Notes: generated by a model not told the origin, from the letters alone. A stretch of DNA of 64,000 nt from Patescibacteria group bacterium (GCA_004321885.1 SCQK01000007.1:64001-128000); one strand, 5' to 3'; shown: positions 22,601 through 43,064, counted from the stretch's first letter. Made by a program: numbers and translations.

Positions 22601-23415
22601 CACTGGCTGGCGTATTTTTGCGTTTGCGGTATGACATTCAAAACAAAAGCCAAAGGGGATAAAATGATAAGCACCCAAAGCACAATCATACGCGCCAAAA
22701 GAATCACCAGATAAACACCCATGGTCACCATAGCCATCCCCGCAAAAGCGACTGCGGCAACCGAAGCCATAAATATGCCGGACATCTTGTAATTCTCCGG
22801 TTGCGTGCCGCCGGCAAATCTTTGTATATCATTAAAATTGAAGGCGTTTATAAGATTGCCGCCGGCCGTGGCCGCCACGCCATTGATAAAAGTTATCATC
22901 ACCACCTGGGCCAGGTCTATAATCAACCCGGCAATGGTGCGGCTGAAATTTACAAGTATCGCGGCAAACAATAATTTCACCAGTAATTTTTTGTATTCAT
23001 ATTGCTCTATGCCCAAAATTGTGCCAAAGGCGATAACGAGCAGGATAATTACAAAAAACATGTTGGTAACATCGCGCACCAACACCCACCCAGTAGTTAC
23101 CGCCGTTGAATCTATAAATCCATTGTATCCCCCAATTTGAATGGTAAAACGCAGAATGAAAATTGTAATCTTCATGAACAACGCCGCCATCCACATGGTA
23201 AAAGTAGTGCCGGCGCTCATTATGGCATCAAAAAATCCATCAGCCTGCGCCACTTCGGCGCCCATCACCCACATCAACAAAACAGTCGTGGCCACCATCA
23301 CAAACGAAACCATGCCCAACTTCCTGCTGGGTTTCAAAAATCGCAAAACAGCGCTCGCGGCCGCGCGCGCTTTTACGCAAACTTTACTCGCCTTTTTCCA
23401 AAGGGAGACAAGCAT
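19651..23415 (-). CDS. VirB6/TrbL-like polytopic membrane protein with a roughly 900-aa charged coiled-coil C-terminal extension
   Basis: about 380-aa N-terminal multi-TM domain, then a Lys/Glu-rich low-complexity region; context with VirB4 and PrgI. Confidence 0.55.
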   Translation of the reverse strand: MLVSLWKKASKVCVKARAAASAVLRFLKPSRKLGMVSFVMVATTVLLMWVMGAEVAQADGFFDAIMSAGTTFTMWMAALFMKITIFILRFTIQIGGYNGFIDSTAVTTGWVLVRDVTNMFFVIILLVIAFGTILGIEQYEYKKLLVKLLFAAILVNFSRTIAGLIIDLAQVVMITFINGVAATAGGNLINAFNFNDIQRFAGGTQPENYKMSGIFMASVAAVAFAGMAMVTMGVYLVILLARMIVLWVLIILSPLAFVLNVIPQTQKYASQWWTEFGNHVIVGPILAFFLWLSFAVVGSGTVSKEIADPSNNSVPVQITDEGIESAGASNIKVGGQSAGITAAMTWPAMANFAIAIGMLLIGAKVTQALGVTGGAMMGKVTDFGKKVAAVASGYTAARWAAKKGVEGAKKAGIGLAKLTGKGLYQGLLANRVERIKGDLQRSIVEGWRAWRAGGPRLETKEEELNIKSRLSRNEELMGYKMEYDEKSKAWHKVKRDENNKIVDSKDALTEDEQNARVTADESGKLYDENGKAITQMKYDFKKKKNLITDKSGVAVATEEEAKKAAAADIKKGAKLVREGDEWYTEQVVDEGRGPFQRFFHGRHEKLLRSRKQLKRVQEFAKVREELMDKRISADPKYLFQAFEGPSINALDRIEKGMLEAEQARSEEKTTEYKAYGRRAVKGNARFKNGEFQIGEKDKYGLGTVSEQIQAHKARAEAEIGLEEMGAKRNRAAFFQRFRHTVEAKKMGELGGQIAEELIKFIEASVRGGLINTSQGEQYVSALARSKSEQEGLSSEEEKNLLAAQSALNEKGKGKLEAESAPIETRIQSLQGVASALAAGEKAEGMRTGLDSKKSALEEMKREYGVLNNKANPTDDETERGVRLADEIGNLESEIEADENKLKGMESAAGIFSGGANQQKIQELAASLETLTKAMEKIKVGGKIDATAAQAFLSSTKGTALENNFKVLFGKQQMDENFLAKTEINVLQQILGQLRQAGSAANVEEIGKSLSGSLTQSRGQLSAVWGKAGAANPALYAAHQLALRDHQYTLYRGTRQDMISKAGQANIWGNMGIDVPNTAAEEAVVEGFFKNFKDMNYDQLLQAHRGHMNHVTLKGKGKQTWEDKMVAQTILKGLFEQSWIDDATMNMLAQEVATTFGGEAQQVIESVRKTMRASATLLNNEQAAAIKGFLQKYNLGAEAVRHIKEFNVTESSKIELQHRNNAQNDQGLRDQGIKNIQELFKLIRGLDSEQLKKLT

Positions 23416-23428: not shown

Positions 23429-23791
23429 TTATGCGACTATATTATACCACAAAAAAAGCTCCGTAACAACGAAGCTGGGGATAAAAATACACGGGAAGCA
23501 GCCCGAGAGCTGAATGGGAGACGAGCCGTCGTTCCAGTCAATCTTTACATCTCGTATGGGCATCTGGTTCATGTCGGCATAAGCGTAAAATTTGAGGGTA
23601 ACGCGGGAGGGAGAGACGGGTATTGTTACGTCAGCGCTGGTTTTGTCGTTGATGGTGAGGCCTTCGGCGCCCTCAAAACAGATGCCGTTCCGGCAATTTA
23701 CCGCATCCAAGCTGTATACATTGTTTAATTTGGCAAACAAATAATTCAAATCGTTAAACAACCCTTTTTCCACCTGGCACTGGCTTTGCAC
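23429..23791 (-). pseudogene. orphan fragment of the giant-protein 3' region
   Basis: 120 aa; 23520-23700 is about 95% identical at nucleotide level to 27040-27240 and about 85% to 29285-29450. Confidence 0.6.
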
Positions 23792-23885
23792 GCAGAGGTT
23801 GTTTCTACAAATACCGGTGATGATGTCACGATCGGATTTGCTTTTTTGAAAAAATAATGTATAGTATAATTACTGTTAAAATTTT

Positions 23886-24284
23886 ATGACTGATTTAGCC
23901 AGGCAACTGGAATTTTGGCTTTCGTCGGCCTCAAAAAATTGGCAGACCGCACTTTCTCTGTATAAATTAGGCCATTATGACATGTGCTTATTTTGCTGTC
24001 ATTTGACTTTAGAGAAAAAACTTAAAGCTATTATTGTCTACCTATTGAAAAAAGTACCACCGCCGATTCACGATTTAAATCGTTTAGCGCAAATCGCGGG
24101 GTTAAATGTTTCTCTCACACAACAAGAACAGCTTAATGAAATAACGAAATTTAATATCCAAGCCCGTTACGATGATATAAAATTGGCTTTTTACAAAAAA
24201 GCTACCAAATTATTCGCAAAAAAATATTTGGAAATAACACAAGAATTAATTTTATGGCTGGAAAAAAAATCGGGCGAGAAGTAA
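23886..24284 (+). CDS. HEPN-domain protein (TA-like partner of MNT)
   Basis: 132 aa alpha-helical; overlaps the downstream nucleotidyltransferase by 31 nt. Confidence 0.55.
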   Translation: MTDLARQLEFWLSSASKNWQTALSLYKLGHYDMCLFCCHLTLEKKLKAIIVYLLKKVPPPIHDLNRLAQIAGLNVSLTQQEQLNEITKFNIQARYDDIKLAFYKKATKLFAKKYLEITQELILWLEKKSGEK

Positions 24285-24592
24285 TGGAAAAAGTCGGTAA
24301 ATTAAAAAAATCTATTGAAGCGGACGGCATAAAAGTGCACAGTATATTTGTGTATGGCTCGTATGCGAAAGGGAATGCGCACAAATGGAGCGACATAGAT
24401 GTTTGTGTCGTTTCAAAAAATTTTGGGACAAAAATTAAAGAGCCGCAGAATTATTTATGGTCTAAGCGCGTAGTTTTACACGATTATTCTTTAGAACCGA
24501 TTGGATTTAGCTATAAAGATTTTAGATTTAGTAATTCACCTTTAATTAGCGAGGTACGTCGTACTGGCGTAAATATCGGCGATAAGGTATGA
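24254..24592 (+). CDS. minimal nucleotidyltransferase (MNT)
   Basis: VYGSYAKGNAHKWSDIDVCV (GS-x9-DxD). Confidence 0.7.
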   Translation: MAGKKIGREVMEKVGKLKKSIEADGIKVHSIFVYGSYAKGNAHKWSDIDVCVVSKNFGTKIKEPQNYLWSKRVVLHDYSLEPIGFSYKDFRFSNSPLISEVRRTGVNIGDKV

Positions 24593-24713
24593 ATCAACAA
24601 TTCTTGCGCCAGGTAATGATTGGCAGGGGCGACGGCTCGACACCGGTTCAACTTGACGGCTGCTTCCTCAATCATCTGTGGAAATTTATCCACCGAAATT
24701 ATGTATAGGCTAA

Positions 24714-24950
24714 GATACTCCCAAAATTCACAACCTCGTCAGACTTTTATTTTTGACGGAACTCCACATACCGCAGTATATCAAGTGTCAAATTGAGGAT
24801 TTAAATCCGCATTATCTTATACCTCGTTATCCTGATTTGGAATTCAAACCAAAATTTAGTTTTACCCACAACGAAAAGAACGCGAAAAAAATAATTAATT
24901 CCGCCGAAAAAATTGTAGTATGTCTAAAAAGCAAGTTAGAAAGATACTAA
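24714..24950 (+). pseudogene. degraded HEPN-like remnant paired with the second MNT
   Basis: only a short ORF with a non-ATG start; same 31-nt overlap geometry with the next MNT; resembles the C-terminal half of HEPN. Confidence 0.3.
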
Positions 24951-25249
24951 CAAAATTTGAAAATGAATTATCCAAAAAAATCAAAGTGGATAATATTTTT
25001 ATTTTTGGCAGCGCTGCCAGAGGCGAAATGACCAGAGACAGTGACTTGGATTTAATTGTCATTTCCAACAATTTCGACAAAATGGACTTCATGAAACGGT
25101 TGCAATTATTGTCGCGGGCCAGCGCGTGCTGCGCCGACAAGATTGCGATGGACGTGGTTGGATACACAATCAAAGAATTTAGGGACATGGACAAAGTTGA
25201 ATCGTTATCCTTAAAGAGAATCATGCGCGAAGGATATTTTGTGCGATGA
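24920..25249 (+). CDS. minimal nucleotidyltransferase (MNT), second copy
   Basis: IFGSAARGEMTRDSDLDL motif. Confidence 0.7.
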   Translation: MSKKQVRKILTKFENELSKKIKVDNIFIFGSAARGEMTRDSDLDLIVISNNFDKMDFMKRLQLLSRASACCADKIAMDVVGYTIKEFRDMDKVESLSLKRIMREGYFVR

Positions 25250-25327
25250 GATAAGTTGTGAAACTCATTAAAAAACTTATCCACTCTTTTTTCTTGACAC
25301 CGCTTGGCTAAAAATGCGACAATACCC

Positions 25328-25356
25328 TTGACAAAAGGGTGTTTTTGTGTTATGTT
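25328..25356 (+). promoter_or_regulatory. sigma70-like promoter of the lipoprotein module
   Basis: TTGACA-17nt-TATGTT; mirrored at 28574-28602 on the minus strand. Confidence 0.45.
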
Positions 25357-25433
25357 GTATGGTTCTTTCACAAAGTGCTAAGTAGGCCAGTATATGGCCT
25401 GGTTAGCCACAAAAGAAGGTTTGGGTAAAGAGT

Positions 25434-25572
25434 GTCATTGCGAGAAGGGAGCGTAAGCGACCGACGCCTGTCCGCCTCTGGCGGAAAGCAATCCCAGTCA
25501 ATTACGAAAGGCCTGCCTGTCGGCAGGCAGGGATTGCCGCGTCGCTCACTGCGTTCGCTCCTCGCAATGACA
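25434..25572. repeat. family-A palindromic element (GTCATTGCGAG...GCAATCCC...GGGATTGC...CTCGCAATGACA) in the 5' leader
   Basis: 139-bp near-perfect inverted repeat; copies at 28358-28496, 36856-36937, 51831-51911, 52934-53009 and 54239-54314. Confidence 0.8.
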
Positions 25573-25613
25573 AACAACGTTTTTCCCCGCTTCGGCGGGG
25601 AAGGAGAAAGTCC

Positions 25614-26009
25614 ATGCTGAAGAAATTGATCGCCACCCTCCTCTGCGTCGCGTTCGCGATGCTCGCCGCGTCCTGCGGCGATGATGGCAAGACCCCGCCC
25701 CCGTCCGACGCGCGGGTCTCGCCCGAACTCCGCGCGGACGGTTGTCCGCCCGGACGAAAAAGGGACAACGTGTCCGGCGAGTGCGTGCTCGCCGACGGGC
25801 TTGTGCCAGACACGAAGAAACCCACGCCGGATACGGGTGTGTGCCCCACACTGCCGAAGGAGGAGGTTGCGTGCAAATTGGGCAAAACCACTGTCGTCAG
25901 TTGCACACTGACAAAGTGGAAACCTGGTGGCTGTGTCGACGTGTGGTGCGCGTGCAACACCGACCCTGGTTGTAACGGGTGGTGGCGCCGCGCTGACTGC
26001 GGCCTCTAA
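25614..26009 (+). CDS. small Cys-rich lipoprotein (GC about 65%)
   Basis: signal peptide + lipobox LAASCG; 10 Cys; a paralogue at 27894-28316 on the minus strand. Confidence 0.6.
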   Translation: MLKKLIATLLCVAFAMLAASCGDDGKTPPPSDARVSPELRADGCPPGRKRDNVSGECVLADGLVPDTKKPTPDTGVCPTLPKEEVACKLGKTTVVSCTLTKWKPGGCVDVWCACNTDPGCNGWWRRADCGL

Positions 26010-26019
26010 CCTTCAAAAA

Positions 26020-26050
26020 CTGCACTGAGCAAGACGTTCGGTGCAGTAAA
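26020..26050 (+). terminator. possible terminator hairpin
   Basis: CTGCAC...GTGCAG stem followed by an A/T-rich tract; large loop. Confidence 0.3.
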
Positions 26051-26089
26051 AATTGTATTCTTTAAAAGAAGAACCTAAAAAGAAGAAAC

Positions 26090-26455
26090 TTACAAGACGA
26101 ACTTTAAAAGATTTTTTAATTCTTTTTCCTCTTCTATAAACTTTTTTTTCATCCTGCGAGCGGCGGCATAGCTGATTTGAAAGTCATTTTTTAATTGACG
26201 GGCGGTGTAATTTGAATCGCTTAAATAATTTTCAAACGCGGATAACCATTTTACCAAAGGTATTCTTGTCTTGTGGAATACTACCTCGGAGATGTCGGAA
26301 AATCTCCTTAAACAATTTTGACAAGTGTATTTTTTTATTTTCCTTTTATCTCTAATGGTGTAAACTCTCTTTGAGAAACAATCAGGACAAACCAGACCGC
26401 GAGGCCAATTCATTCTGCGCAGTGCCTGAAGGATTTGCGTTTCAGAATATATCAT
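26090..26455 (-). mobile_element. IS1595/ISXO2-family transposase N-terminal zinc-ribbon domain only (truncated remnant)
   Basis: WPRGLVCPDCFSKRVYTIRD...YTCQNCLRRFS...FHKTRIPLVKWLSAF matches the IS1595 Tnp N-domain; no DDE domain follows. Confidence 0.6.
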
Positions 26456-26456
26456 A

Positions 26457-27842
26457 TCATTTCGGAGCTACAATGATGGATTTGGGAGAGGAGCCGCCGA
26501 AGGGGGTCCAGGCACCACTATCTAAAGGAAAACATTCATCATCGTAAGTATTCCCGGTGATTTGTCTTCTATCATAACACCCCGTCTTCCCCGGGCTATT
26601 CGCGTCACCGCACACCCCATTACACCACCCCCAATTATCCTTGACCTGTACCTTGGGGGTGTATTTGCAACAGCCTTCTTTGAAAGCGAGGTCGGACGGG
26701 CATTGAGAAGCCGGAACAAAGTTGGCGCTGTCTTTGACGCACTGATAGGAATAGTCGGCGCGGAAGTACGCGTTGTCGCAGGTTTTGTCCACAATCTGGC
26801 CGAAGTTGGGGGCGATGTTTTCCGGCAGGCATTGGTCTATGTTTTTGCAGTCATTCACTGACTGGCACTCTTTGTTTGTTGGTTTCTCAGTACCATACAC
26901 TTCTTTGTGCGTCACGGTATTATAAGAAGCTGTTTTTATATAGCAATATTTCTTGGCGTTAAATTCCCCGCCAACGGATTGGAAATCGCATTTCGTGCCT
27001 GTGGTTTTGCCTCGGTGATTGCGGAAGTAGCCCGAGAGCTGAATGGGAGACGAACCATCGCCCCAGTCAATTTTTACATCTCGTATGGGCATCTGGTTCA
27101 TGTCGGCATAAGCGTAAAATTTGAGGGTAACGCGGGAGGGAGAGACCGGTATTTTCACGTCATCACTGGTTTTGTCGTTGATGGTGAGGCCTTCGGTGCC
27201 CTCAAAACAAATGCCATTCCGGCAATTTACCGCTAAAATTTTCGGAGCCAAAGCCGCAGAAGATTGCTCGGTCGCATTGAAAAGATTATTTTGCGAAGAA
27301 ACGCGCGCCTGATAAACTCCAGCCTCATCCAAGCTGTATACATTGTTTAATTTGGCAAACAAATAATTCAAATCGTTAAACATCCCTTTTTCTATCTGGC
27401 TGTCCGAAAGCTGGCTTAGCAGCGGAGGCGCCGGCCTGGAAAAATCAAGCGTGCCGTCCACGGCGCCGCTCGCGGTCTTGTTCGTCTGCCCGCCTGGATT
27501 GATATTTTTGGAACTGTAAGGCGCGCCGGTCACAGTTTGGCTGGTGTTTTGCTGGCGAGGGCCGTACAGTAATTTAATATCTTCCTTATCCGTTAAAGGA
27601 GGATTAGTGATATTTAGACTGCCAAACGGAGACATCAGGGTTTTGAAAATATAGTCGGCCAATTTATCCACACCTGTCGGCGAGGTATGCAAATTAACAG
27701 TAAAATTTCCGCCTTCCCAAATTCTGTTTGTTTTGGCCGTATTGGCCCTGTAAGCCGCGTCCGCGATTTGCATAAATTTTCTTAAAGTAGTATTGCGTAT
27801 TCTCTTGAAAAGAGAAGGGATTCTCTGCTCAAGGGAACGCAC
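26457..27842 (-). CDS. orphan paralogue of the C-terminal ~480 aa of the giant protein (possibly silent cassette)
   Basis: collinear with the giant protein C-terminus; 26560-26860 is about 90-95% nucleotide-identical to 28780-29060. Confidence 0.6.
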   Translation of the reverse strand: MRSLEQRIPSLFKRIRNTTLRKFMQIADAAYRANTAKTNRIWEGGNFTVNLHTSPTGVDKLADYIFKTLMSPFGSLNITNPPLTDKEDIKLLYGPRQQNTSQTVTGAPYSSKNINPGGQTNKTASGAVDGTLDFSRPAPPLLSQLSDSQIEKGMFNDLNYLFAKLNNVYSLDEAGVYQARVSSQNNLFNATEQSSAALAPKILAVNCRNGICFEGTEGLTINDKTSDDVKIPVSPSRVTLKFYAYADMNQMPIRDVKIDWGDGSSPIQLSGYFRNHRGKTTGTKCDFQSVGGEFNAKKYCYIKTASYNTVTHKEVYGTEKPTNKECQSVNDCKNIDQCLPENIAPNFGQIVDKTCDNAYFRADYSYQCVKDSANFVPASQCPSDLAFKEGCCKYTPKVQVKDNWGWCNGVCGDANSPGKTGCYDRRQITGNTYDDECFPLDSGAWTPFGGSSPKSIIVAPK

Positions 27843-27893
27843 CGCGAGGCGATGCGTGAGAAGGTTAGGATGGGTGGGCGAGGTGGGGCGACG

Positions 27894-28316
27894 TCACTGC
27901 TTGGTGCAGGTGACATACTTGTCAGCTGTTTGACAAGATGTCGACTGTGCCGAAGCACAGGGAGCAACCGCCCCCCCCCCGTTCGTACAAGGGAAACGAC
28001 AGCCAGAGCCGTCTTTGTTCTCTGTCCCATCTGGAGAACATTGACGGATTTCTGATCCGGTGCACACCCACGTACCACCTTTCGGGCACTTCCCAGACGT
28101 GGTGTCCGGCGTGGGCGTTCCCTTGTCGCACTTCCCCTGCGCCGAGACGACGCAGGTAGGAAACGAGTCGCCGACGAGCCCGTCGGCGCGGAGAGTGTCC
28201 GCAATGCGCGCGTCGGACGGGGGGGCGGAGCCGGTGTCATCGCCGCAGGACGCGGCGAGCGTCGCGAACGCGACGAGCGTCGCGCAAAGGAGGATAGCGT
28301 TCAATTTCTTCAGCAT
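27894..28316 (-). CDS. small Cys-rich lipoprotein paralogue (GC-rich)
   Basis: MLKKLNAILLC...LAASCGDD lipobox; 12 Cys. Confidence 0.6.
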   Translation of the reverse strand: MLKKLNAILLCATLVAFATLAASCGDDTGSAPPSDARIADTLRADGLVGDSFPTCVVSAQGKCDKGTPTPDTTSGKCPKGGTWVCTGSEIRQCSPDGTENKDGSGCRFPCTNGGGAVAPCASAQSTSCQTADKYVTCTKQ

Positions 28317-28357
28317 GTTCCTTCTCCTTCCCCACCGAAGCGGGGGTTTCGTTGTTT

Positions 28358-28496
28358 GTCATTGCGAGGAGCGAACGTAGTGAGCGACGCGGCAATCCCT
28401 GCCTGTCGACAGGCAGGCTTTTCGTAATTGACTTGGATTGCTTTCCGCCAGAGGCGGACAGGCGTCGGTCGCTTACGCTCCCTTCTCGCAATGACA
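28358..28496. repeat. family-A palindromic element in the leader (inverted copy of 25434-25572)
   Basis: sequence identity. Confidence 0.8.
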
Positions 28497-28573
28497 CCCA
28501 TTACCCAAACCTTCTTTTTGTGGCTAACCAGGCCATATACTGGCCTACTTAGCACTTTGTGAAAGAACCACAC

Positions 28574-28602
28574 CTTATACCACAAAACTGGGGTTTTGTC
28601 AA
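28574..28602 (-). promoter_or_regulatory. sigma70-like promoter (TTGACA-17nt-TATAAG) of the minus-strand lipoprotein module
   Basis: mirror image of 25328-25356. Confidence 0.45.
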
Positions 28603-28698
28603 CCTCGCCAAGAGGCCCCGCCTCCGGCAGGGTCAAGGGTATTGTCGCATGGCGGAGTGAACTCGTCAAGAAAAGATGTGATAAGTGACGATGTTTTT

Positions 28699-31600
28699 TT
28701 ATTTGGGAGCCACGATGATGGATTTGGAGAAAGAAGTAAATGCACCAGTATCATCTGTACACTCATCTTTTCCTCCATTCCAAAAACCCTGATAACACCC
28801 CCCGTCCTTCCCACCCGGACAACTCCCGTTACACCACCCCCAGTTATCCTTGACCTGCACCTTGGGGGTGTATTTGCAACAACCTTCTTTGAAAGCGAGG
28901 TCGGACGGGCATTGAGAAGCCGGGACAAAGTTAGCACTGTCTTTGACGCACTGGTAGGAATAATCAGCTCGGAAGTAGGCGTTGTCGCAGGTTTTGTCCA
29001 CAATCTGGCCAAAGTTGGGGGCGATGTTTTCCGGCAGGCATTGGTCGATGTTTTTGCAGTCGGTATCAGAACCGACTGTCTGGCAGGTTTTCGTCATGGG
29101 CCTCCTTATCTCGTGTTTATCTTCCGGCTGCACATAGGCGTCGGTTACAATGGTGCAGCGATTTTCTTTCACATCCTGATTAAGCGGATTGGGTACACTC
29201 TCACATTTGCCATCCACCTTCCCTCGGTGATTGCGGAAGTATCCATCAAGGACAACCGGCGCCGAGCCATCGTTCCAGTCTATCTTTACATTCCTGATGG
29301 GCATTTGGTTCATATCGGCATAGCCGTAAAATTTGAGGGTAACGCGGGAGGGAGAGACCGGTATTTTTACGTCAGCGCTGGTTTTGTCGTTGAGGGTGAT
29401 GCCGGCTGGCCCTTCGGTGCAAATGCCGCCCTGACAGTTGACAGACAGGACTTTGGGGGCTTTGAGAAAATTACTTAATGTCTCGGTGCGGTTAATTCCT
29501 TTGACTTCGTATGCATCTGAATTATATCGCTTATATATACCGAGATTATCTAGAGCAAATAAATTGTTGACTTTGGCGAATAGACTGTCAAGACGCGACA
29601 CGGAATTTATGCCTGCCGGCAAACCCGCGGGGGCTGGTTTGGTGAAATCAAGAGTGCCGTCCGGATTGCCACTAATTGTTCTGTTGACATAGCCGCCCGC
29701 ACCTGTGCTGCTTTTCGCGCCATACGGAGCGCCCACAATGCTCTGGATGGCATTCTGCTGGCGCGGGCCATAAAGTAACCGCAGGTCTTCTTTTTCCAAA
29801 GAAGGAGGATTGTTGATGTTGAGAGAGCCAAATGGTTCGGTGAGAGTTTTGAAGATGTAATCCGAGCCAGAGCCGGAAAAAGAGACGGAATATTTGCTTC
29901 CCTCCCAAATCCGGTTGGTCCAGGCCGTGCTCTGCCTGTCGGCAACATCGGCGATTTGGTCGCAGTATTCTCTTAATCGCGCCGTCACTTTTATATTTAT
30001 TGGAAAATAAGATTGGCCCGACTGCTCCTCATTTGGCCACCAGCCAGGACCGCCGCCGGCCAAACATTTTGCCACACCGACTTTAATCAGCTTTTTGTCT
30101 TTGTCAAACACCAAAACCACTTCCAAAGATTGCTGTCTGTCTTCTTTGCCGTTATCGCACAAATCGCCGGCGTCTTTGGCGGTCACCTGCATAACACTGT
30201 CTTTCAAACTATCTCCGTATTCGGGAAAAAATCCGGACTGGTCTTTAATGTAGTCGCGTTGCAGAACCCCGGCTCCCGCGTCCCGGTTATCGGAGAAAAA
30301 TCTCATTATGGTGTAATCGTTAAATTGTTTGATGCGCGTTTCCGCCAGCGGCGGCCGCGTGTTGATGGGTTTCTCAAATATTAAAGAATGTTCTTTTTCC
30401 GTATCACACAGTTCGGTTGAGTTGTAAGCGTCTCCTTTCAGCGAACCATCCGCGTTTTCTTCCGCCACCACGCATCCTGATTTGCCCGCCTGGTCAATGT
30501 AATTTTTTCCGTACAATGTTCTGACCCGTTTCGTAATATCGCTCTTGGCGCCATTACGGATAATATATGTGCCGCGCACCACATTATTGTCACCGCCGAT
30601 ATTTATGAACATGTCGGCCTCAATTTCCACCTGGTCTATATCATACAAATGAATGTCGTAATCAGCCACTTGTGAAAAAGTAACTCTGTTAAATAGACTG
30701 CCATATTTCCAAGACGCGGGATTGGGGTCTTTATGGCCGGGAAAATTAAACTCCTGCGGGTCATCTGCTTTGGCGAACGGCGTATAACCGACCATTTTTG
30801 ATGAAACAGAACCTGGTTTGATTATCGTCTCTGCCTTCAATGAATAAACAATGCCCTGGGGCACGAGTGTTCTGCTAAACGGAGACGGCATCAATGGCAA
30901 AAGAGACACGCCATAGCATTCTGACGGGTCGCAAAAATAATGTGCGTCATCGCTATTTGTAAAATATTGACGCGGCTGTTGGTCGCTGCCGGGGACTTGA
31001 TTATAGAGCGACTCTCCGATTTTTGGATTCACAGTGCTATTGATTGTAAGGTCGTTGGAATAAAAGGCGACTATTTGGCCTACTACACTTTTATAAATAG
31101 TGGCGCATCTTTGAATCTTTTCCTTGCTACAAAACCTTCCAAAAAAAGTCGGATAAGCGCTGTAATCGCCCCTATTCCCCGCTTCTCTGGCGCAATAATA
31201 CCGTCCATAGGCCGCGGGCTTGTAGCCGGCTTCGTCAAACTGGTTGTCCACGTCCAATGCCCCATTCAAGGTCTGCACCGGCAGCCAGGACAGGCACTGA
31301 AAGTTGGTCTGCTCGGAATTTATCGGGCGAGACATATCTTTTTCCAGACAAAAACCACGCCAGCCGATGAAGCGGTTTTCTTTTTTCTTGATTTCGCAAG
31401 TGCCGGATGTCTGGCCCGCGCAATCATCGTCAGTCGCGCAGGGCTTGGTGTCATAAGAGCCGCCCAGACAATAGCCCTGGGGCACGGCATTACCTTTGTT
31501 CGGATTGGTGTAGCCCCAGTATTTTACAGTGCTGTCTCCGTAATTTACCTTCGTGTAATCGCATTCGCAGGCAGAAGCGGTTTTGGTGTCCGTGGTTTCA

Positions 31601-34600
31601 ATAGCGCCGCTCTCATTGCACTTGTTGGCATTGACAAAGGCCTGGGATTTTACCAGATTGGCGGTGTTGGGATAGGGCGATTCTTTTTCCGGATAGGCGC
31701 GGCAGGTGTGGTTGGGCGCCTGGTCCATGATATTGCTGTCCGGGCCAGACGGGCTTTGCATACAGAGGTTGTTTTTGCAAATGCCGGCGCTGTTTTTGCC
31801 GCAGGGTTTGTTGTTGGCGCCCTGGGCGCAATTATAATCATTTGGCTTGGCCGGGTCTTTGCAGTTTAGCCCGCCGCAAGGAATCATTTTCACCAAACGC
31901 CAGTCCGGATTTTTGCTGTCGCCTAAATTGCGCTGGTCCAATTCTTCGGGCGGATACAAGCCCAGCAAACTAAAACCAGAATAGTCCAGTCCCTTCCACG
32001 AGGTGTCGCGGCCGCGGTAAATGTTGTCGCTTAAAACCTGGCCCGTGTATTCATGGTCAAAATCCACCCACTTTTTACAGTTGGTAATGTCGCCTTCCGC
32101 GGCTTTTTCCGGGGCCTGGGCGCACCGGCCAATGCCGTCGCAGACTTCTTTGAACTTGCTTTCTTTTTCGCTCCACACGCGGTGCGATGACTTGCATTGC
32201 AGCCACTCGCCGCACTCGCGGTCGCGCACCACTTTGAGCACGGTGTTGGCGTTGTTTACCCCGCCTTTCTTGGAAACATCTATGGGTTGAACCAGCGCGT
32301 AATTTTTGGCCGCGCTGTCGGCATAGGTGGCGGCCGTGTCATAGAGCTTGTTTGGCCAGTCGGTTTTGTCAAATAAAACACAGCCGGCTTTTTCGCTCAC
32401 TTGTCCAACGCATTCTTTAGCCGCGGATTTTAATTTTTCATCGTTGATGATGTAATAGGCCTTGTCGCTGTCGTTGTGGTCCACATACTCGGTGCAGCCG
32501 CTTTGCTGAGCCGGACATTCGCCCACGAAATTTTTGTACCGGCCTTTGTCGCCGTAAGACCACAGGTCATAAAGATTCCCGGCTTTCAAATAATCCGGAT
32601 AGCAGGGCGACAAATCCTTGTCAACGCATTTCGGGGTCGGGTCGGTCGGAGTTAGTGTGATGCCTTTGGCGCAATCGCTGTCGCTGACGCAATATTTTTC
32701 CAGATTGGTCTTGCTGTTCCCGTCGCACTGGCCCACACCTTTCCAAAACCAGCCGCTCGCTTTATTGCCAGCTCCCCCGGGCAAGGTTACATCAGCGCGA
32801 TAAGAACAAATTTTCTGCCCAATAACAACCGGGTCTTTGAAATAGACCGTGCCGTCCGGAGAATTATATTCGTCACAACCCTCGGCCTCGCTTTGGCAAA
32901 GATTTTTGTCATAGCCATCGGGGTCGTTTTTTACAAGAACCGTTTCGTAAGCATCGCCAGACGGAGTGGATTTTTTCTTACCGGCGTAAGTACAGCCGAC
33001 GTCAATCTCGTTGCAGTGGGCTGATTTGTCCGCCACCAAATATATGGGCTTGTCGGCCCGGGTGTCGGGGGGAATGAAAACCGTGGAAGCGGTGACTGTT
33101 CCGCCCGCGGTTTTGATGTCAGCTAATTCATATCCAAACACATTGACATAACAGCCCTTTTCTCCGACTGGAACCTGACAGGAAAATTCCTGGCTGGCCT
33201 GGATTCCTGCTTGCGCAGGAATGACAATTTTTACCTTTGTCCCCTCGGCTCCGGACAGCCACACATTGTACGCGCGCGGGCCCGAGTCCTCGGGCGTGTT
33301 GTATGTGTCGTACAGCGCAGTACAGCCAATGGCGTTTTCGCGGCACAAATTGCTAAAGCCCGTGAGATAAAACGGCGTATTGCGGGAATTGGCGTAAGCT
33401 GAACAGCCCAGGGCTTCGCCCGGCAGATTATCCGTGGGGTCGCTGTCGCAAATCTGGTCAACCTTGAGGGTTTTTTTGACCAGATAAATATAGTCGGTAA
33501 CTTCTTTCAAAGAAATGTTGTCTAAAAATACGCTGCCGACGTTGGCAAAGGAAAAAGTAAGGCTGGCCGCGTCTGTCTCGTTGACTTCCACTGGGCCGAG
33601 ATGATAATAGCGCCAGACATCGCTGACGCTCACCGCGCCCAGCGCGAATGAGGCAGTCTTGCCCAAAGCAACCGCAAGAGTAAGCGCGCCCGAGGACTTG
33701 GCCCAGAAAGTCAAATCATAACTCTTGCCGGTTTTGAGCGCCACATCTTTTACCGCTGTGCCGGCTGTGCCGCCGCCTGAATTTAAGACAGAAAATCCCA
33801 ATGAGTGCCCGCCCGGCCTGGTTGACTCGGCAGAAATGGCAATGGAACTGTTGCCCCCCGCCCAGCCAGTCAGGGCCGCGGCCTGAACTCCGGCTTCAAA
33901 TTCTTCGTAAAACACATTGCGCGTATTGTTGCCGGCATTGCCCTTGTACTCGCGGCAGGAGTTGTGCTGGGCCTGGCACGATAGGCTGATGCCGGCGGTG
34001 TTGTAGGCCGAGCCAGGCAGGCCATAGTAAAAGCAGGCGCCGTCTTTGTATTCGCCGTTTTGAAAACAATTAGCGCCATTGTAAAATTCCGGCTCGTTTA
34101 GGCGATACGGGGCGCAGGACTTGTCCACCGGAATGGTTTTGGCCAGCAGGCGGTAATAGACCGCGCCCTTGTCATCGTTGAATTGACGGCAGTCGGCGTC
34201 GGCCGTGCCGGCCTTGTAAAGCGCTTCGCTGCATTTCGCGTCATAACCAGTCAATTCGGCCTGGGTTTTGTACCAGTACTTTGGCGCCCCGGCCGCGACC
34301 GCATCTTCCACCAGGGTGTAGGTTTTTAATTGAAACCCGCCATAGGTGGAGCCTTCGTAGGTAAAGAAAACCTTGCCCTTGTCTTTTTCGGGCAAAACGC
34401 ACGGCCGCAAATAGGAAAAAAATTCCACCTGCTCGGTAAGACCGGCCGTGGTGGTGGACAGATTGGTAAAACTAGCGCACCCGGTCGCGGCCGACGGGCA
34501 CGAGGCGCCGGAGGCAGGAATAATATAAGCCAGGTCTTGGCCGGCCGAATAATTGCTGGGCATCTCGCGATAGCTGGCATAGCCCACGCACTTGGCATCG

Positions 34601-36885
34601 CACTGGTCGTTCCAGGTGATTTCGCCCTCGGTAATTGTAGCGGCCGTAAACTGGCCGGGCACGCGGTCGCCTAAATAGCTTTGCGGGCTATACCAGTCGC
34701 ACCCCACTTCGCTGGGCAAACACACCTGGGCATAGTTAACGCAATCTTTCTCCGGTTTGATGTTGGTCAAGTCAGCCACGGTTTCGGGCCAGTCTGTTGG
34801 CGGGGTGCCCGGGTTGGCATCGTAGCACTTCAAATAGTACGGCGCTTTTTTTAGAGACAATTTTTCAGTGGTACTAACGGTCTTGAAAATGGCACAGCCG
34901 GCTGAATTGGCCGAACAGCCCGAGGAGCCGGAGGATAAATTTTTATTGAAATAAATCGCGGAATTTTCGCCGATAGTTAGGTCGTCTGTGTTTTGCGCCA
35001 GCCAGGTGGACGAGGCGGCCGGGGTCTCTGCGCTTTTTTTCAGGCTATAAGCAGAACAGCCCACATTGTCTTTTTCACAATAGCCCGTGTCCAAGGTGCG
35101 CTGTAAATAGGCTGTTTGCGCGCCCGTGGTTTTGTTGGTAAAGGCCAGACAGGTGCGGTTTTGCGGCTTGCATTGGCCCGCGTCAAAACGCCAGACATTT
35201 TTCTCGCGCGAGCAATAGCCATAGGTGGCACAGTTGCCGTCTTTGTCATAGGCCACGCACGCAGACAAGTCCACGCATTCTTCCATTCTTTCGGGGCCGT
35301 CGGCCATCAGCAGATTGGGGCCGCTGGCCAGGGCGTTACAGCGCGAGGCCGGCGCTTTCAGCACCCAGTTCGGGTCTATCAAACGGCAAAAAGGCTTATT
35401 CACCGGGTCGTTGTCAATGACTCCGGAGCTGTTTTTATTGCAGTCATTAAACCCGTCCACCACTTGTTTTAATGTCCAAGGCTTGTCCGGATTGCTGTTT
35501 AAGGCCGCGATTTCAAAACCAAGCGGCAGGACGCGCGCCTTGCGCAGTTTTTTGATGTTGGAATAGCAGTAGGCCTGCTGATAACAGGCACGGTCCGTGT
35601 CTAAGGAATTATCCGGCGGAATCAGCTTCCAGTCGCCGTGCAGGCCCGGCCCGCCGGCTCCTCTTTGCAGGGCTTCGGCAATGGTGAGGGGCTTGCCGCC
35701 GCTGGCCTCCTGGGCCGCGCCCACCAGGCCCTCGTCGGCCGCGCAATTGTTTTGCGCCGGAGATTCCGGACAGCTGGAGAGCTCGGCCAGGATGTTGTAG
35801 CGCTCTTGCACCGTGGTTTTGGGCGTGAGCAATTCGCTGTACATTGTCTCGGCTTGGCGGCGGTCGCTTTGCCCGCCCACCGCGATAAAGTTCTCCGCGC
35901 TTGGACCGGCGCCGCCACCGCCGCCCTCATCGTAGCCGATGCCAAACGGAAACATGCCCTTGGACAGAAAATTTTTCACCATTTCCCCGGCCAGGGTGTT
36001 TAAGAACATTGAGATGGTGGAAGGAATAATTTGGAAAGTGCCTGAACCAATGGCCTGGCCCGCCATTTGCTGGCTCATTTTTTGCTGTTCCGATGGGGTC
36101 AAATTTTCCATTGTTTTTTTGGTGGCCTGGGCCGGCGTTTTTATTGCTCCGGAAATTAAAGACTCCACTCCCTTCATACCCTGACCCTCCTGGCGCTTCA
36201 AAAGAGCTTCATTTTTTTCTTCCATTATTATATTATCTATTTTCGCCCTTGAATCCATGTAAAGGCCGAGGTCGGTTTCTTCCACTTTAAGCGAGGCGTT
36301 GAAAACCTGGTCAAAGTTGCCCTCGGCCAGACCGCCGTAGCGGCTTTTCCAGGCCTCGCCGCCCCAATTTTTGACAAAGGAATTGAAATCGCAGGCCGGT
36401 TTGGCCGGTTCGCCATATTGAAATTTCAGCCCGATGCGAAAAGCCAGGTCAATTTTTATGTCCGGAATTTTGCACAAATTCAAACCAAGGGGCTTGCCCA
36501 ATTCTTCTATGGCCTTGCCAAACGCGTTGCCCCCGACGTTTTTCATATAGCTTCCCCAGCCGTCTTTGAAAGCCAGGCCGCTTTGGCCCTTGCCCCCGGC
36601 GGCCAGATACACAGCCGTGTCATAAGCAATTTTGCGCATGAAATATGAGGTAGCTTGCATGGCCGCGCTCATCACAGCCACCTGGGTGCCCTTTATTATT
36701 TTATCTTTTATTTGTTTGGCCAAATCCGGAATGTCTTTGGTGATAATGGCGGGCCACGCGGCTTGGGCCGTGCGCGGAAACAAAAAAGAACCGGCGAGGG
36801 TGGTAGCCAGCAGAATTACTGCAAGTATTGTGGCGCTGATTTTTTTCATACATTTGTCATTGCGAGGAGTGGAGCGACGAAGCAA
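28699..36885 (-). CDS. giant secreted Cys-rich surface protein (2728 aa)
   Basis: signal peptide MKKISATILAVILLATTLAGS...AQA; uninterrupted 8.2-kb ORF; many Cys/Gly/Asn-rich segments. Confidence 0.8.
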   Translation of the reverse strand: MLRRSTPRNDKCMKKISATILAVILLATTLAGSFLFPRTAQAAWPAIITKDIPDLAKQIKDKIIKGTQVAVMSAAMQATSYFMRKIAYDTAVYLAAGGKGQSGLAFKDGWGSYMKNVGGNAFGKAIEELGKPLGLNLCKIPDIKIDLAFRIGLKFQYGEPAKPACDFNSFVKNWGGEAWKSRYGGLAEGNFDQVFNASLKVEETDLGLYMDSRAKIDNIIMEEKNEALLKRQEGQGMKGVESLISGAIKTPAQATKKTMENLTPSEQQKMSQQMAGQAIGSGTFQIIPSTISMFLNTLAGEMVKNFLSKGMFPFGIGYDEGGGGGAGPSAENFIAVGGQSDRRQAETMYSELLTPKTTVQERYNILAELSSCPESPAQNNCAADEGLVGAAQEASGGKPLTIAEALQRGAGGPGLHGDWKLIPPDNSLDTDRACYQQAYCYSNIKKLRKARVLPLGFEIAALNSNPDKPWTLKQVVDGFNDCNKNSSGVIDNDPVNKPFCRLIDPNWVLKAPASRCNALASGPNLLMADGPERMEECVDLSACVAYDKDGNCATYGYCSREKNVWRFDAGQCKPQNRTCLAFTNKTTGAQTAYLQRTLDTGYCEKDNVGCSAYSLKKSAETPAASSTWLAQNTDDLTIGENSAIYFNKNLSSGSSGCSANSAGCAIFKTVSTTEKLSLKKAPYYLKCYDANPGTPPTDWPETVADLTNIKPEKDCVNYAQVCLPSEVGCDWYSPQSYLGDRVPGQFTAATITEGEITWNDQCDAKCVGYASYREMPSNYSAGQDLAYIIPASGASCPSAATGCASFTNLSTTTAGLTEQVEFFSYLRPCVLPEKDKGKVFFTYEGSTYGGFQLKTYTLVEDAVAAGAPKYWYKTQAELTGYDAKCSEALYKAGTADADCRQFNDDKGAVYYRLLAKTIPVDKSCAPYRLNEPEFYNGANCFQNGEYKDGACFYYGLPGSAYNTAGISLSCQAQHNSCREYKGNAGNNTRNVFYEEFEAGVQAAALTGWAGGNSSIAISAESTRPGGHSLGFSVLNSGGGTAGTAVKDVALKTGKSYDLTFWAKSSGALTLAVALGKTASFALGAVSVSDVWRYYHLGPVEVNETDAASLTFSFANVGSVFLDNISLKEVTDYIYLVKKTLKVDQICDSDPTDNLPGEALGCSAYANSRNTPFYLTGFSNLCRENAIGCTALYDTYNTPEDSGPRAYNVWLSGAEGTKVKIVIPAQAGIQASQEFSCQVPVGEKGCYVNVFGYELADIKTAGGTVTASTVFIPPDTRADKPIYLVADKSAHCNEIDVGCTYAGKKKSTPSGDAYETVLVKNDPDGYDKNLCQSEAEGCDEYNSPDGTVYFKDPVVIGQKICSYRADVTLPGGAGNKASGWFWKGVGQCDGNSKTNLEKYCVSDSDCAKGITLTPTDPTPKCVDKDLSPCYPDYLKAGNLYDLWSYGDKGRYKNFVGECPAQQSGCTEYVDHNDSDKAYYIINDEKLKSAAKECVGQVSEKAGCVLFDKTDWPNKLYDTAATYADSAAKNYALVQPIDVSKKGGVNNANTVLKVVRDRECGEWLQCKSSHRVWSEKESKFKEVCDGIGRCAQAPEKAAEGDITNCKKWVDFDHEYTGQVLSDNIYRGRDTSWKGLDYSGFSLLGLYPPEELDQRNLGDSKNPDWRLVKMIPCGGLNCKDPAKPNDYNCAQGANNKPCGKNSAGICKNNLCMQSPSGPDSNIMDQAPNHTCRAYPEKESPYPNTANLVKSQAFVNANKCNESGAIETTDTKTASACECDYTKVNYGDSTVKYWGYTNPNKGNAVPQGYCLGGSYDTKPCATDDDCAGQTSGTCEIKKKENRFIGWRGFCLEKDMSRPINSEQTNFQCLSWLPVQTLNGALDVDNQFDEAGYKPAAYGRYYCAREAGNRGDYSAYPTFFGRFCSKEKIQRCATIYKSVVGQIVAFYSNDLTINSTVNPKIGESLYNQVPGSDQQPRQYFTNSDDAHYFCDPSECYGVSLLPLMPSPFSRTLVPQGIVYSLKAETIIKPGSVSSKMVGYTPFAKADDPQEFNFPGHKDPNPASWKYGSLFNRVTFSQVADYDIHLYDIDQVEIEADMFINIGGDNNVVRGTYIIRNGAKSDITKRVRTLYGKNYIDQAGKSGCVVAEENADGSLKGDAYNSTELCDTEKEHSLIFEKPINTRPPLAETRIKQFNDYTIMRFFSDNRDAGAGVLQRDYIKDQSGFFPEYGDSLKDSVMQVTAKDAGDLCDNGKEDRQQSLEVVLVFDKDKKLIKVGVAKCLAGGGPGWWPNEEQSGQSYFPINIKVTARLREYCDQIADVADRQSTAWTNRIWEGSKYSVSFSGSGSDYIFKTLTEPFGSLNINNPPSLEKEDLRLLYGPRQQNAIQSIVGAPYGAKSSTGAGGYVNRTISGNPDGTLDFTKPAPAGLPAGINSVSRLDSLFAKVNNLFALDNLGIYKRYNSDAYEVKGINRTETLSNFLKAPKVLSVNCQGGICTEGPAGITLNDKTSADVKIPVSPSRVTLKFYGYADMNQMPIRNVKIDWNDGSAPVVLDGYFRNHRGKVDGKCESVPNPLNQDVKENRCTIVTDAYVQPEDKHEIRRPMTKTCQTVGSDTDCKNIDQCLPENIAPNFGQIVDKTCDNAYFRADYSYQCVKDSANFVPASQCPSDLAFKEGCCKYTPKVQVKDNWGWCNGSCPGGKDGGCYQGFWNGGKDECTDDTGAFTSFSKSIIVAPK

Positions 36886-36937
36886 TCCCTTGCGTTATGT
36901 CTGGGATTGCTTCGGCCTTTCAGGCCTCGCAATGACA
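36856..36937. repeat. family-A palindromic element
   Basis: GTCATTGCGAGGAG...CGCAATGACA between the TSP3-repeat gene and the giant gene. Confidence 0.8.

Positions 36938-41395: not shown

Positions 41396-43064
<1,669 letters not shown>

What the first reader, a model, noticed from the sequence alone, without database searches (positions are those of the whole stretch)
23429..36937. Giant 2728-aa secreted protein gene followed by orphan, highly nucleotide-similar copies of its 3' end, with a transposase remnant
The 8.2-kb minus-strand gene 28699-36885 has a signal peptide and is Cys-rich. Two partial copies lie downstream on the same strand. The first is 26457-27842 (461 aa), collinear with the last ~480 aa. 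The second is 23429-23791 (120 aa), a chimera of a mid-gene segment near 31760 and the C-terminal region. Conserved blocks are about 90-95% identical at nucleotide level by eye: 28780-29060 matches 26560-26860, and 29285-29450 matches 27040-27240 and 23520-23700. The extreme C-terminal ~40 aa differ apart from a shared terminal SIIVAPK. An IS1595-type transposase N-domain remnant (26090-26455) abuts the first orphan copy. This layout resembles silent-cassette antigenic variation, or polymorphic-toxin loci with orphan C-terminal modules. In either case segmental gene conversion could swap the C-terminal domain of a surface or effector protein.
Basis: seen in the sequence. Interest (0 to 1): 0.85.

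Follow-up and report, generated by a model that had tools for sequence, protein, structure and literature searches.

The report
Displaced 3'-end copies of giant gene
A giant secreted protein gene next to the type IV secretion genes of an ultrasmall (CPR/Patescibacteria) bacterium is followed by three partial copies of its own 3' end that traded sequence with it in the past; they look more like leftovers of earlier versions of the gene than like a working switching system.

Summary
The gene at 28699-36849(-) encodes a 2716-aa, signal-peptide-bearing protein with 102 Cys. Downstream on the same strand lie O1 (26457-27842, open to the native stop) and O2 (23429-23845, deleted and chimeric). I also found a third scrap, O3 (24589-24675, + strand).

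G and O1 are saturated at synonymous sites (pS 0.79) except in two tracts (pS 0.31-0.38; Fisher P=5e-12). Those tracts are saturated against orthologues, so recombination or gene conversion occurred. An independent Logan assembly reproduces three of the novel junctions at 100% identity.

The gene is a conserved, syntenic member of the T4SS-like cluster of ABY1-class Patescibacteria (65 related loci). Only 2 of 52 related loci with enough flank carry an orphan.

The C-terminal module is a PKD-like Ig domain plus a Cys-rich domain with no match among solved structures. No toxin fold or family was detected. The hypervariable part of the family lies upstream of what the orphans cover.

Best reading (about 0.55): serial displacement of the 3' end, together with a neighbouring lipoprotein gene, leaving relics that decay. 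An active cassette system is not excluded (about 0.2). A polymorphic-toxin reading is not supported. Interest is moderate.

The parts
28699..36849 (-). Expressed giant gene G (2716 aa from the ATG; the ORF extends to a TTG at 36885). It has a Sec signal peptide and 102 Cys. aa 1-1900 are conserved in 43 orthologues, aa ~1900-2290 are unalignable (hypervariable), and aa 2292-2716 form the module copied in the orphans.
29980..31152 (-). Hypervariable segment of G (aa ~1900-2290). It is not represented in any orphan.
   Evidence: (1-3% of orthologues alignable)
29325..29394 (-). Tract 1: near-identical core shared by G, O1 and O2, at the start of the PKD-like domain. The 42-codon tract has pS 0.38, against 0.79 elsewhere.
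28815..29061 (-). Tract 2: 93% identical to O1 26608-26852. Within the 78-codon conserved block there are 14 synonymous and 0 non-synonymous differences (pS 0.31).
28207..28587 (-). Inverted-repeat arm R: promoter-like site, ~250-nt 5'UTR with a nested palindromic element, Shine-Dalgarno sequence and signal peptide of lipo140.
27894..28316 (-). lipo140: small Cys-containing lipoprotein gene (LAASCGDD lipobox), 62% GC, on the same strand as G. This orientation is atypical.
26457..27842 (-). Orphan O1: 5'-truncated copy of G aa 2292-2716 (homology 26460-27785). It is open to the native stop and has no signal peptide.
26090..26455 (-). IS1595-type transposase stub (Zn ribbon only). Its ATG lies 1 nt after the O1 stop codon.
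25614..26009 (+). lipo131: paralogous lipoprotein gene, convergent with O1. This is the arrangement seen downstream of the giant gene in related loci.
25343..25714 (+). Inverted-repeat arm L (promoter, 5'UTR and signal peptide of lipo131).
24589..24675 (+). Orphan O3: inverted, degenerate 87-nt scrap (MNQQFLRQVMIGRGDGSTPVQLDGCFLNH vs G aa 2513-2541).
   Evidence: E=7.6e-4; 73-75% nt identity to O1/O2
23886..25249 (+). Filler: a HEPN (23886-24284) / nucleotidyltransferase (24254-24592) pair, a HEPN fragment (24753-24950) and a second nucleotidyltransferase (24920-25249).
23429..23845 (-). Orphan O2: a mid-gene scrap (23783-23845), block B (23701-23778) and block A (23494-23704), 93-95% identical to O1, with internal deletions. 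The tail 23429-23493 is the regulatory region of the next gene.
19651..23415 (-). Next conserved gene of the cluster (1254 aa, polytopic membrane N-terminus plus coiled coil). In relatives it starts 0.2-2 kb after the giant gene; here the distance is 5.28 kb.

Best explanation
G encodes a conserved, Sec-exported, Cys-rich giant protein. It sits at the head of the type IV secretion-like cluster of an ABY1-class (Magasanikbacteria-like) Patescibacterium and is probably a cell-surface or host-contact component (inferred).

Its last ~430 aa are a poorly ordered linker, a PKD-like Ig domain and a Cys-rich terminal domain ending in IIVAP. This module exists as deeply diverged versions.

The spacer between G and the next cluster gene normally holds one convergent lipoprotein gene. 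Here it has grown to 5.3 kb and holds leftovers of other versions of that 3' end. O1 is still open, O2 is deleted and chimeric, and O3 is an inverted scrap. The spacer also holds a second lipoprotein gene copy, an IS1595 stub and HEPN/nucleotidyltransferase genes.

The most likely history is repeated replacement of the 3' end, together with its neighbouring lipoprotein gene. The incoming DNA may have been taken up from outside or duplicated within the genome. Each event left the previous 3' end downstream, where it decays by deletion; the most distal copy is the most decayed.

The G and O1 lineages also exchanged sequence by homologous recombination or gene conversion at the two most conserved segments.

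Shown: the copies, the mosaic, purifying selection during the divergence of the copies, the junctions, rarity in relatives, and the fold.
Inferred: the order of events, the displacement mechanism and the surface role.
For: - Copies and mosaic.
- Synonymous divergence: G-O1 pS is 0.79 outside the tracts and 0.31-0.38 inside them (Fisher P=5e-12). The same codons are saturated against six orthologues (pS 0.73-1.0), so the low values are not a nucleotide-level constraint.
- G and O1 are each other's closest relatives even with the tracts masked.
- O1 and O2 are sisters with dS 0.157 and dN 0.043. The copies therefore diverged under purifying selection, as expressed alleles would.
- Decay gradient: O1 is intact, O2 is chimeric and deleted next to the 1254-aa gene, and O3 is an 87-nt inverted scrap.
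- The spacer is 5.28 kb, against 0.2-2 kb in most of the ~40 related loci where both genes are seen (a few reach 2.6-7.5 kb). The O1 -> <- lipo131 pairing reproduces the usual 'giant 3' end, convergent lipoprotein' layout.
- IS stub and HEPN/MNT genes mark a plastic spot.
- Orphans occur in only 2 of 52 other loci, L006 and L059.
- The L006 orphan has the structure expected from a single crossover. A ~120-nt tract with dS ~0.08 sits at its 5' edge and the rest has dS ~0.5. The 5.6 kb of housekeeping genes between the copies are found next to the giant gene in no other locus.
- ComEC is encoded in the window. ABY1 T4SS loci are reported to carry competence and recombination genes (PMC12102498).
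- Junctions are confirmed by an independent assembly.
Against: - O1 has no stop in 443 homologous codons. If it had drifted neutrally for even 0.08 substitutions per site, the probability of that is ~0.02. Displacement must therefore be very recent, or O1 is kept by selection.
- The IS stub starts 1 nt after O1's native stop, leaving the O1 C-terminus untouched.
- Orphans recur in three distantly related genomes. Four of five orphan 5' boundaries cluster within ~50 codons at the PKD-like segment, and that segment is also the low-dS tract in both the window and L006. This looks more regular than random debris.
- The same-strand orientation of lipo140, and the inverted repeat it creates, are not explained by simple stacking.
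- No donor allele or close strain is available. The nearest other C-terminal sequence is 35-41% identical.
Confidence: 0.55

Rival explanations
1. Working cassette reservoir. O1, and formerly O2, would be silent donors that still convert segments of the 3' end of G. This would change the loops of a host-contact domain, as in Neisseria pilE/pilS or Mycoplasma genitalium mgpB/MgPar.
For: - Variable segments are bracketed by tracts conserved at nucleotide level.
- O1 is 5'-truncated, co-oriented with G and open to the native stop, and has evolved under purifying selection.
- The same layout occurs in L006 and L059. In L006 the differences concentrate in the same loops.
- The longest identical runs of 41-43 nt are probably long enough to support homologous recombination (my assumption about the minimal length).
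Against: - Only one usable donor exists.
- The exchanged tracts are old (dS ~0.33), and G has no segment identical to O1 longer than 43 nt.
- Second-order selection on a rarely used donor should not keep it intact.
- O2 and O3 were allowed to decay.
- 50 of 52 related loci have no donor.
- The family's truly hypervariable segment is not covered by the orphans.
- No dedicated recombinase is nearby.
Confidence: 0.2
2. O1 is an independent, expressed gene. It would be co-transcribed with lipo140 and the Zn-ribbon ORF from the lipo140 promoter and make a free C-terminal-domain protein with its own role.
For: - O1 has an intact 461-codon ORF under purifying selection.
- It starts 51 nt after the lipo140 stop, with a promoter-like site upstream of lipo140 and no convincing terminator between them.
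- It was annotated as a protein in the source record (EPN28_01920).
- Lack of a Shine-Dalgarno sequence is normal in this genome.
Against: - It has no signal peptide, although the domain is Cys-rich and otherwise always sits at the end of a Sec-exported giant protein.
- No stand-alone homologue on a long contig was found. P0002 is a frame-split giant gene. P0012 is the L006 orphan.
- Homology to G starts abruptly inside the protein.
Confidence: 0.12
3. Polymorphic toxin locus. G would deliver a C-terminal toxin, the lipoproteins would be immunity proteins, and O1/O2 would be orphan toxin-immunity modules.
For: - 5'-truncated C-terminal copies lie downstream of a giant secreted protein.
- Each larger copy has a small, highly variable lipoprotein gene next to it.
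Against: - The tip carries family-invariant motifs (DNWGWCNG, IIVAP) instead of being the hypervariable part.
- The lipoprotein gene is on the opposite strand in all 12 related loci examined, and is probably absent from the loci whose spacer is only 0.2-0.4 kb (inferred from spacer length).
Confidence: 0.05
4. Assembly artefact: co-assembled strain variants of the 3' end were stitched in series.
For: - The source is a metagenome-assembled genome.
- The orphans of L006 and L059 sit at contig ends.
Against: - Three Logan contigs from run SRR8426592 match the window at 100% across unique junctions and break only inside the repeats.
- Each copy has unique, non-homologous flanks.
- The copies are 50-60% identical over most of their length, far too different to be collapsed or duplicated strain variants.
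Confidence: 0.03

Closest known systems
Orphan C-terminal modules of Rhs / CdiA / MafB polymorphic toxin loci (from general knowledge)
   Same: A giant exported protein is followed, on the same strand, by 5'-truncated copies of its 3' end. Each larger copy has a small variable gene beside it. The most distal copy is the most decayed, consistent with successive displacement of older ends.
   Different: No toxin domain was found. The tip is conserved rather than hypervariable. There is no demarcation motif of the VENN or PxxxxDPxGL type. The small neighbour is a lipoprotein that is usually encoded on the opposite strand.
Mycoplasma genitalium mgpB/mgpC with MgPar partial copies; Neisseria pilE/pilS (from general knowledge)
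   Same: In a reduced-genome, host-attached bacterium, truncated promoterless copies of part of an adhesin-like gene share conserved tracts that bracket variable segments. There is evidence of segmental exchange.
   Different: Those systems have many donors and frequent, ongoing, mostly unidirectional conversion. Here there is one intact donor, the tracts are old, and 50 of 52 relatives have none.
Helicobacter pylori CagY (T4SS component varied by recombination; structural review PMC10706595 listed, not read)
   Same: A very large T4SS-associated protein whose sequence is changed by homologous recombination.
   Different: As I recall it, CagY rearranges internal direct repeats in frame. Here the partners are external partial copies, and the protein is unrelated in sequence.
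Phage Mu G segment / R64 shufflon (invertible alternative C-termini; from general knowledge)
   Same: Alternative C-terminal modules of a binding protein lie next to a partner gene, and an inverted repeat is present in the locus.
   Different: The repeat arms lie in the lipoprotein genes, not in the giant gene. O1 and O2 are co-oriented with G. There is no adjacent invertase.
Patescibacterial T4SS loci (PMC12102498)
   Same: A chromosomal T4SS-like cluster with a VirB4-type ATPase (8876-10747). PrgI and TraC-like genes are seen in L001. ComF-like and ComEC genes lie nearby, as described for class ABY1.
   Different: That survey reports no adhesin in Patescibacterial T4SS loci. The giant Cys-rich protein family described here is not mentioned in the passages I read.

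Membership tests
Polymorphic toxin system with orphan modules (Rhs/CdiA-like) | C-terminal tip is a toxin domain of a recognisable family or fold | tested here: not met
Polymorphic toxin system with orphan modules (Rhs/CdiA-like) | Conserved body, then a sharply demarcated hypervariable tip | tested here: not met
   In 43 orthologues the unalignable part is aa ~1900-2290. The last 200 aa are 34-46% identical and carry near-invariant motifs.
Polymorphic toxin system with orphan modules (Rhs/CdiA-like) | Cognate immunity gene immediately downstream on the same strand | tested here: not met
   The small lipoprotein gene is on the opposite strand in all 12 related loci examined. Several other loci have spacers of only 0.2-0.4 kb, too short for such a gene (inferred). 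Only lipo140 is co-oriented.
Polymorphic toxin system with orphan modules (Rhs/CdiA-like) | 5'-truncated orphan copies of the 3' end downstream | tested here: met
   O1, O2 and O3.
Silent-cassette antigenic variation (pilE/pilS, vlsE, MgPar) | One expression site plus several promoterless truncated donors | tested here: inconclusive
   There is one intact donor (O1) and two decayed ones. O1 may be read through from the lipo140 promoter.
Silent-cassette antigenic variation (pilE/pilS, vlsE, MgPar) | Variable segments bracketed by tracts shared at nucleotide level | tested here: met
   There are two tracts with pS 0.31-0.38, against 0.79 elsewhere. The orthologue control is saturated.
Silent-cassette antigenic variation (pilE/pilS, vlsE, MgPar) | Ongoing, frequent segmental conversion seen as mosaics within a population | not testable with these tools
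   No read data are available and the metagenome scan failed. Indirectly, tract dS is ~0.33 and the longest identical run is 43 nt, which argues against recent events.
Silent-cassette antigenic variation (pilE/pilS, vlsE, MgPar) | System conserved across related strains or species | tested here: not met
   Orphans occur in 2 of 52 related loci with at least 1.5 kb of downstream flank. No same-species strain is available.
Invertible C-terminal switch (Mu Gin / shufflon) | Inverted repeats at the constant/variable junction inside the gene, alternative ends in opposite orientation, invertase adjacent | tested here: not met
   The repeat arms are the lipoprotein 5' regions. O1 and O2 are co-oriented with G. 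The only recombinase found in the window is a large serine recombinase at 4164-5672, about 18 kb from O2; three of the ORFs of 230 aa or more in the window (56806-58824, 59333-60862, 62352-63332) were not scanned.
Diversity-generating retroelement | Template/variable repeat pair with adenine-specific mismatches, and a reverse transcriptase | tested here: not met
   The 14 mismatches in tract 2 are mostly C<->T at third codon positions and all are synonymous. No reverse transcriptase appeared among the scanned ORFs.
IS1595 transposase | N-terminal Zn ribbon plus DDE catalytic domain (~300 aa) | tested here: not met
   The Zn ribbon is present (PF12760, E=6.8e-10). Only the first 49 of 215 positions of the IS1595 transposase model (NF033547) are matched, in a 121-aa ORF. 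It is a stub.
PKD / Ig-like domain | Beta-sandwich fold with a WxxGDG-type motif | tested here: inconclusive

The most novel reading that the evidence does not exclude
ABY1-class Patescibacteria may have a recurrent, recombination-based way to exchange the binding end of their T4SS-associated giant surface protein. A conserved ~40-codon PKD-like segment would act as the crossover anchor. Downstream 5'-truncated copies would be kept as alternative ends, possibly each with a cognate lipoprotein. Swapping them would alter host or partner recognition of an episymbiont. The window, L006 and L059 would be three snapshots of this process.
Probability: 0.17. Interest if true: 0.8.

Novelty: new variant of a known kind. 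Interest (0 to 1): 0.45.

Why it matters
Patescibacteria live attached to other microbes, and their T4SS-like cluster has been reported as essential for that lifestyle in the one strain tested. A recent phylum-wide survey reports no adhesin for these systems (PMC12102498).

The gene studied here belongs to a conserved, syntenic, uncharacterised family of giant Cys-rich exported proteins at the head of that cluster in class ABY1. The family has an internal hypervariable segment and a recombining C-terminal module.

If the partial copies are used, this would be a first candidate for cassette-type variation of a host-contact protein in these bacteria. If they are relics, they still record that the 3' end of this gene turns over by recombination. 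That points to the C-terminal domain and its neighbouring lipoprotein as likely specificity determinants.

Tried and rejected
No strain-level comparison was possible.
- Exact-protein look-ups of O1 and O2 (P0001, P0018) found nothing. Look-ups of lipo140, the IS stub and HEPN gave Logan contigs that only confirm the assembly.
- The afdb50 fold library was unavailable.
- PDB sequence search of the whole giant protein found no hit.
- tblastn of the last 266 aa against the phage and plasmid collections found no match. A first attempt had a frame error.
- DGR idea: rejected on the mismatch spectrum.
- Invertible-segment idea: the inverted repeat is real but lies in the lipoprotein genes. Inversion would only flip O1 and exchange the lipoprotein 3' parts; it would not join O1 to G.
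- Integrative-element idea (the 3' end as an attachment site): no integrase lies between the copies, and in L006 the intervening genes are housekeeping genes.
- A possible second small conversion between G and O2 (positions 161-179 of the three-way block) is not a clean tract and was not claimed.
- Literature searches found no description of this protein family or of orphan cassettes in CPR.

Full report
**What is there**

The window comes from a Patescibacteria (CPR) metagenome-assembled genome. O1 and O2 are annotated in NCBI as EPN28_01920 and EPN28_01885 on a 214.5-kb contig. The surrounding genes are chromosomal housekeeping genes: GroEL, RF-1, NusA, YidC, LeuRS, KsgA, Sua5 and ComEC.

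The ORF at 28699-36885(-) is real. Its probable start is the ATG at 36849. The product is 2716 aa with an N-terminal signal peptide and 102 cysteines.

- 26608-26852 vs 28815-29061: 93% over 247 nt.
- 23494-23704 vs 27023-27233: 93% over 211 nt.
- 23522-23662 vs 29263-29403: 91% over 142 nt.
- 27007-27191 vs 29219-29403: 84% over 187 nt.
- 23701-23778 vs 27323-27400: 95% over 78 nt.
Between these blocks the copies are only 50-60% identical.

O1 (26457-27842) is collinear with giant aa 2292-2716 and open to the native stop...KSIIVAPK*.

O2 is a chimera with three parts. The first is a mid-gene scrap at 23783-23845 that matches giant aa 1689-1699. The second is two C-terminal blocks with a deletion between them. 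The third is a non-homologous tail that carries the terminator- and promoter-like sites of the next gene.

I found a further, inverted and degenerate scrap, O3, at 24589-24675 on the + strand. The 121-aa ORF at 26090-26455 is an IS1595 Zn-ribbon stub.

**Not an assembly artefact**

Three contigs from an independent Logan assembly of run SRR8426592 match the window at 100% identity:
- L067 covers 28464-27353 (lipo140 into O1).
- L068 covers 26648-25465 (the O1 end, the IS stub and lipo131).
- L069 covers 23731-25389 (the O2 5' part, the HEPN/nucleotidyltransferase genes and O3).
They end only inside the repeated tracts.

**The exchange between copies is real**

In a codon alignment, G and O1 are saturated at synonymous sites (pS 0.79, dN 0.26-0.78) except in two tracts. 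Tract 1 has 42 codons with pS 0.38. Tract 2 has 78 codons with pS 0.31, made up of 14 synonymous and 0 non-synonymous differences. The contrast gives Fisher P=5e-12.

The same codons are saturated (pS 0.73-1.0) between G and six orthologues. The low values therefore reflect recombination or gene conversion, not a nucleotide-level constraint. The mismatches are third-position transitions, not adenine-specific, so this is not a DGR.

O1 and O2 are sisters, with dS 0.157 and dN 0.043. G and O1 are each other's nearest relatives among all family members, even with the tracts masked.

**Context**

The giant gene is a conserved, syntenic gene. A genome scan found 65 related loci, mostly Magasanikbacteria with some Falkowbacteria and other Patescibacteria. 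The usual order is KsgA, a ~200-aa TSP3-repeat protein, the giant gene, and then a homologue of the 1254-aa membrane/coiled-coil protein.

In L001 the cluster continues with PrgI and TraC-like genes. The window has a VirB4/TraG-type ATPase at 8876-10747 and a weak phosphoribosyltransferase-domain hit that may be ComF-like at 7465-8262. This is the T4SS-like cluster of class ABY1 described in PMC12102498. That paper also states that no adhesin was detected in Patescibacterial T4SS loci.

Among 43 full-length orthologues, aa 1-1900 are conserved (38-63% identity), aa ~1900-2290 are unalignable, and aa 2300-2716 are 29-46% identical. The orphans therefore cover the conserved C-terminal module, not the hypervariable segment.

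In relatives, the giant stop and the next gene are mostly 0.2-2 kb apart. Where the spacer is about 1 kb or more, it holds one small, GC-richer, Cys-containing lipoprotein gene on the opposite strand in the 12 loci examined. In the window the spacer is 5.28 kb.

The window has two such lipoprotein genes. lipo131 is convergent with O1, as in relatives. lipo140 is on the same strand as G. They share an almost identical promoter, ~250-nt 5'UTR and signal peptide, and then diverge. This creates the 384-nt inverted repeat that brackets O1 and the IS stub.

**Fold**

**How common it is**

I searched every related locus with the window's C-terminus and with its own 3' end. Only L006 and L059 have an orphan, out of 52 loci with at least 1.5 kb of downstream flank.

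L006 has a 700-nt copy 5.6 kb downstream, 82-91% identical. Overall it has dS 0.52 and dN 0.11, and its first 40 codons have dS ~0.08. Its differences concentrate in the same loops as in the window. The intervening genes are housekeeping genes not found near the giant gene in any other locus.

L059 has a copy that starts at TDPNAGP... and runs to the contig end. It includes a 90-nt tract at 94% identity.

Four of five orphan 5' boundaries (the O2 block, O3, L006 and L059) fall within about 50 codons at the PKD-like segment. That segment is also the low-dS tract in both the window and L006.

**Interpretation**

The copies diverged under purifying selection, yet two of the three are visibly decaying. 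The most distal is the most decayed. The spot carries an IS stub and HEPN/nucleotidyltransferase genes.

This fits serial displacement of the 3' end, with its neighbouring lipoprotein gene, by recombination, leaving earlier ends behind. ComEC in the window makes uptake of foreign alleles plausible, though this is an inference.

The L006 structure is what a single crossover of a circularised fragment at the PKD-like segment would give. This too is an inference.

The main difficulty is that O1 is fully open. Under neutral drift of 0.08 substitutions per site, the chance of having no stop is ~0.02, and at 0.16 it is ~0.0007. Either displacement was very recent, and the low-dS tracts date from recombination between alleles before displacement, or O1 is maintained in place.

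An active cassette system is therefore not excluded. It is weakened by several points:
- There is a single usable donor.
- The exchanged tracts are old.
- O2 and O3 have been left to decay.
- Orphans are rare among relatives.
- No recombinase lies nearby. The only one found is a large serine recombinase about 18 kb from O2.

The polymorphic-toxin reading fails three of four defining features.

**Verdict**

This is a new variant of a known kind: orphan 3'-end copies with gene conversion, in an undescribed CPR protein family. Interest is moderate, at 0.45.

Noticed in passing
window 52933-53009, 54237-54314 (LeuRS); 51830-51912, 51303-51341 (ComEC); 36855-36937; 25411-25579; 28350-28518: A ~79-nt palindromic element (TGTCATTGCGAGG...CCTCGCAATGACA) is inserted in frame inside the essential genes LeuRS (twice, peptide VIA[SN]E[AV][20 protein letters not shown]) and ComEC (twice). 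It also lies just upstream of the giant gene's ATG and, as a larger nested palindrome, in both lipoprotein 5'UTRs. This resembles the behaviour of Rickettsia palindromic elements.
   Followed up: partly
window 37766-37810, 43019-43080, 43364-43426, 48548-48604, 56644-56686, 59047-59101, 59194-59234: A second family of short (35-55 nt, 90-97% identical) dispersed repeats, mostly in intergenic positions.
   Followed up: no
window 14482-14593 and 15237-15348: A 112-nt direct repeat (94%) brackets the NYN-domain gene at 14724-15248 inside the T4SS-like cluster.
   Followed up: no
window 4164-5672 (-), 2154-2246: A large serine recombinase (Resolvase + Recombinase + Zn ribbon) sits in a 58.6% GC block near tRNA-Ser. 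This may be an integrated element. It is about 18 kb from O2.
   Followed up: no
window 25343-25613 and 28317-28587: Both lipoprotein genes carry an almost identical ~250-nt structured 5'UTR and a strong AGGAG Shine-Dalgarno sequence, whereas most genes of this genome have none. The genes are 62-64% GC in a ~48% GC genome. The lipoprotein-containing spacer is also GC-richer than the locus as a whole in the related loci.
   Followed up: partly
window 23886-25249: A HEPN / nucleotidyltransferase (MNT-type) pair, a HEPN fragment and a second nucleotidyltransferase fill the spacer between O2 and the inverted repeat.
   Followed up: partly
L001 3726-11446 (and L002): The orthologous giant gene is split into 2100-aa and 481-aa ORFs that overlap by 28 nt. 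This is a frameshift or a sequencing error, and it explains why a 'stand-alone' 481-aa homologue (P0002) appears in the protein database.
   Followed up: partly
L059 10001-12084: In this Falkowbacteria genome the expressed C-terminus lacks the family-invariant DNWGWCNG block, while the downstream orphan keeps it. The orphan looks more 'ancestral' than the expressed end.
   Followed up: partly
window 29980-31152 (giant aa ~1900-2290): A ~400-aa segment of the giant protein is unalignable among 43 orthologues, while both flanks are conserved. This internal hypervariable region is not covered by any orphan.
   Followed up: partly
window 673-2082 (-), 2785-3678 (+), 48668-49306 (-), 36938-37561 (-): Other likely envelope or surface proteins in the window: a right-handed beta-helix protein, an Amidase_6 protein, a YkuD L,D-transpeptidase with a TSP3 repeat, and a TSP3-repeat protein immediately upstream of the giant gene.
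   Followed up: no
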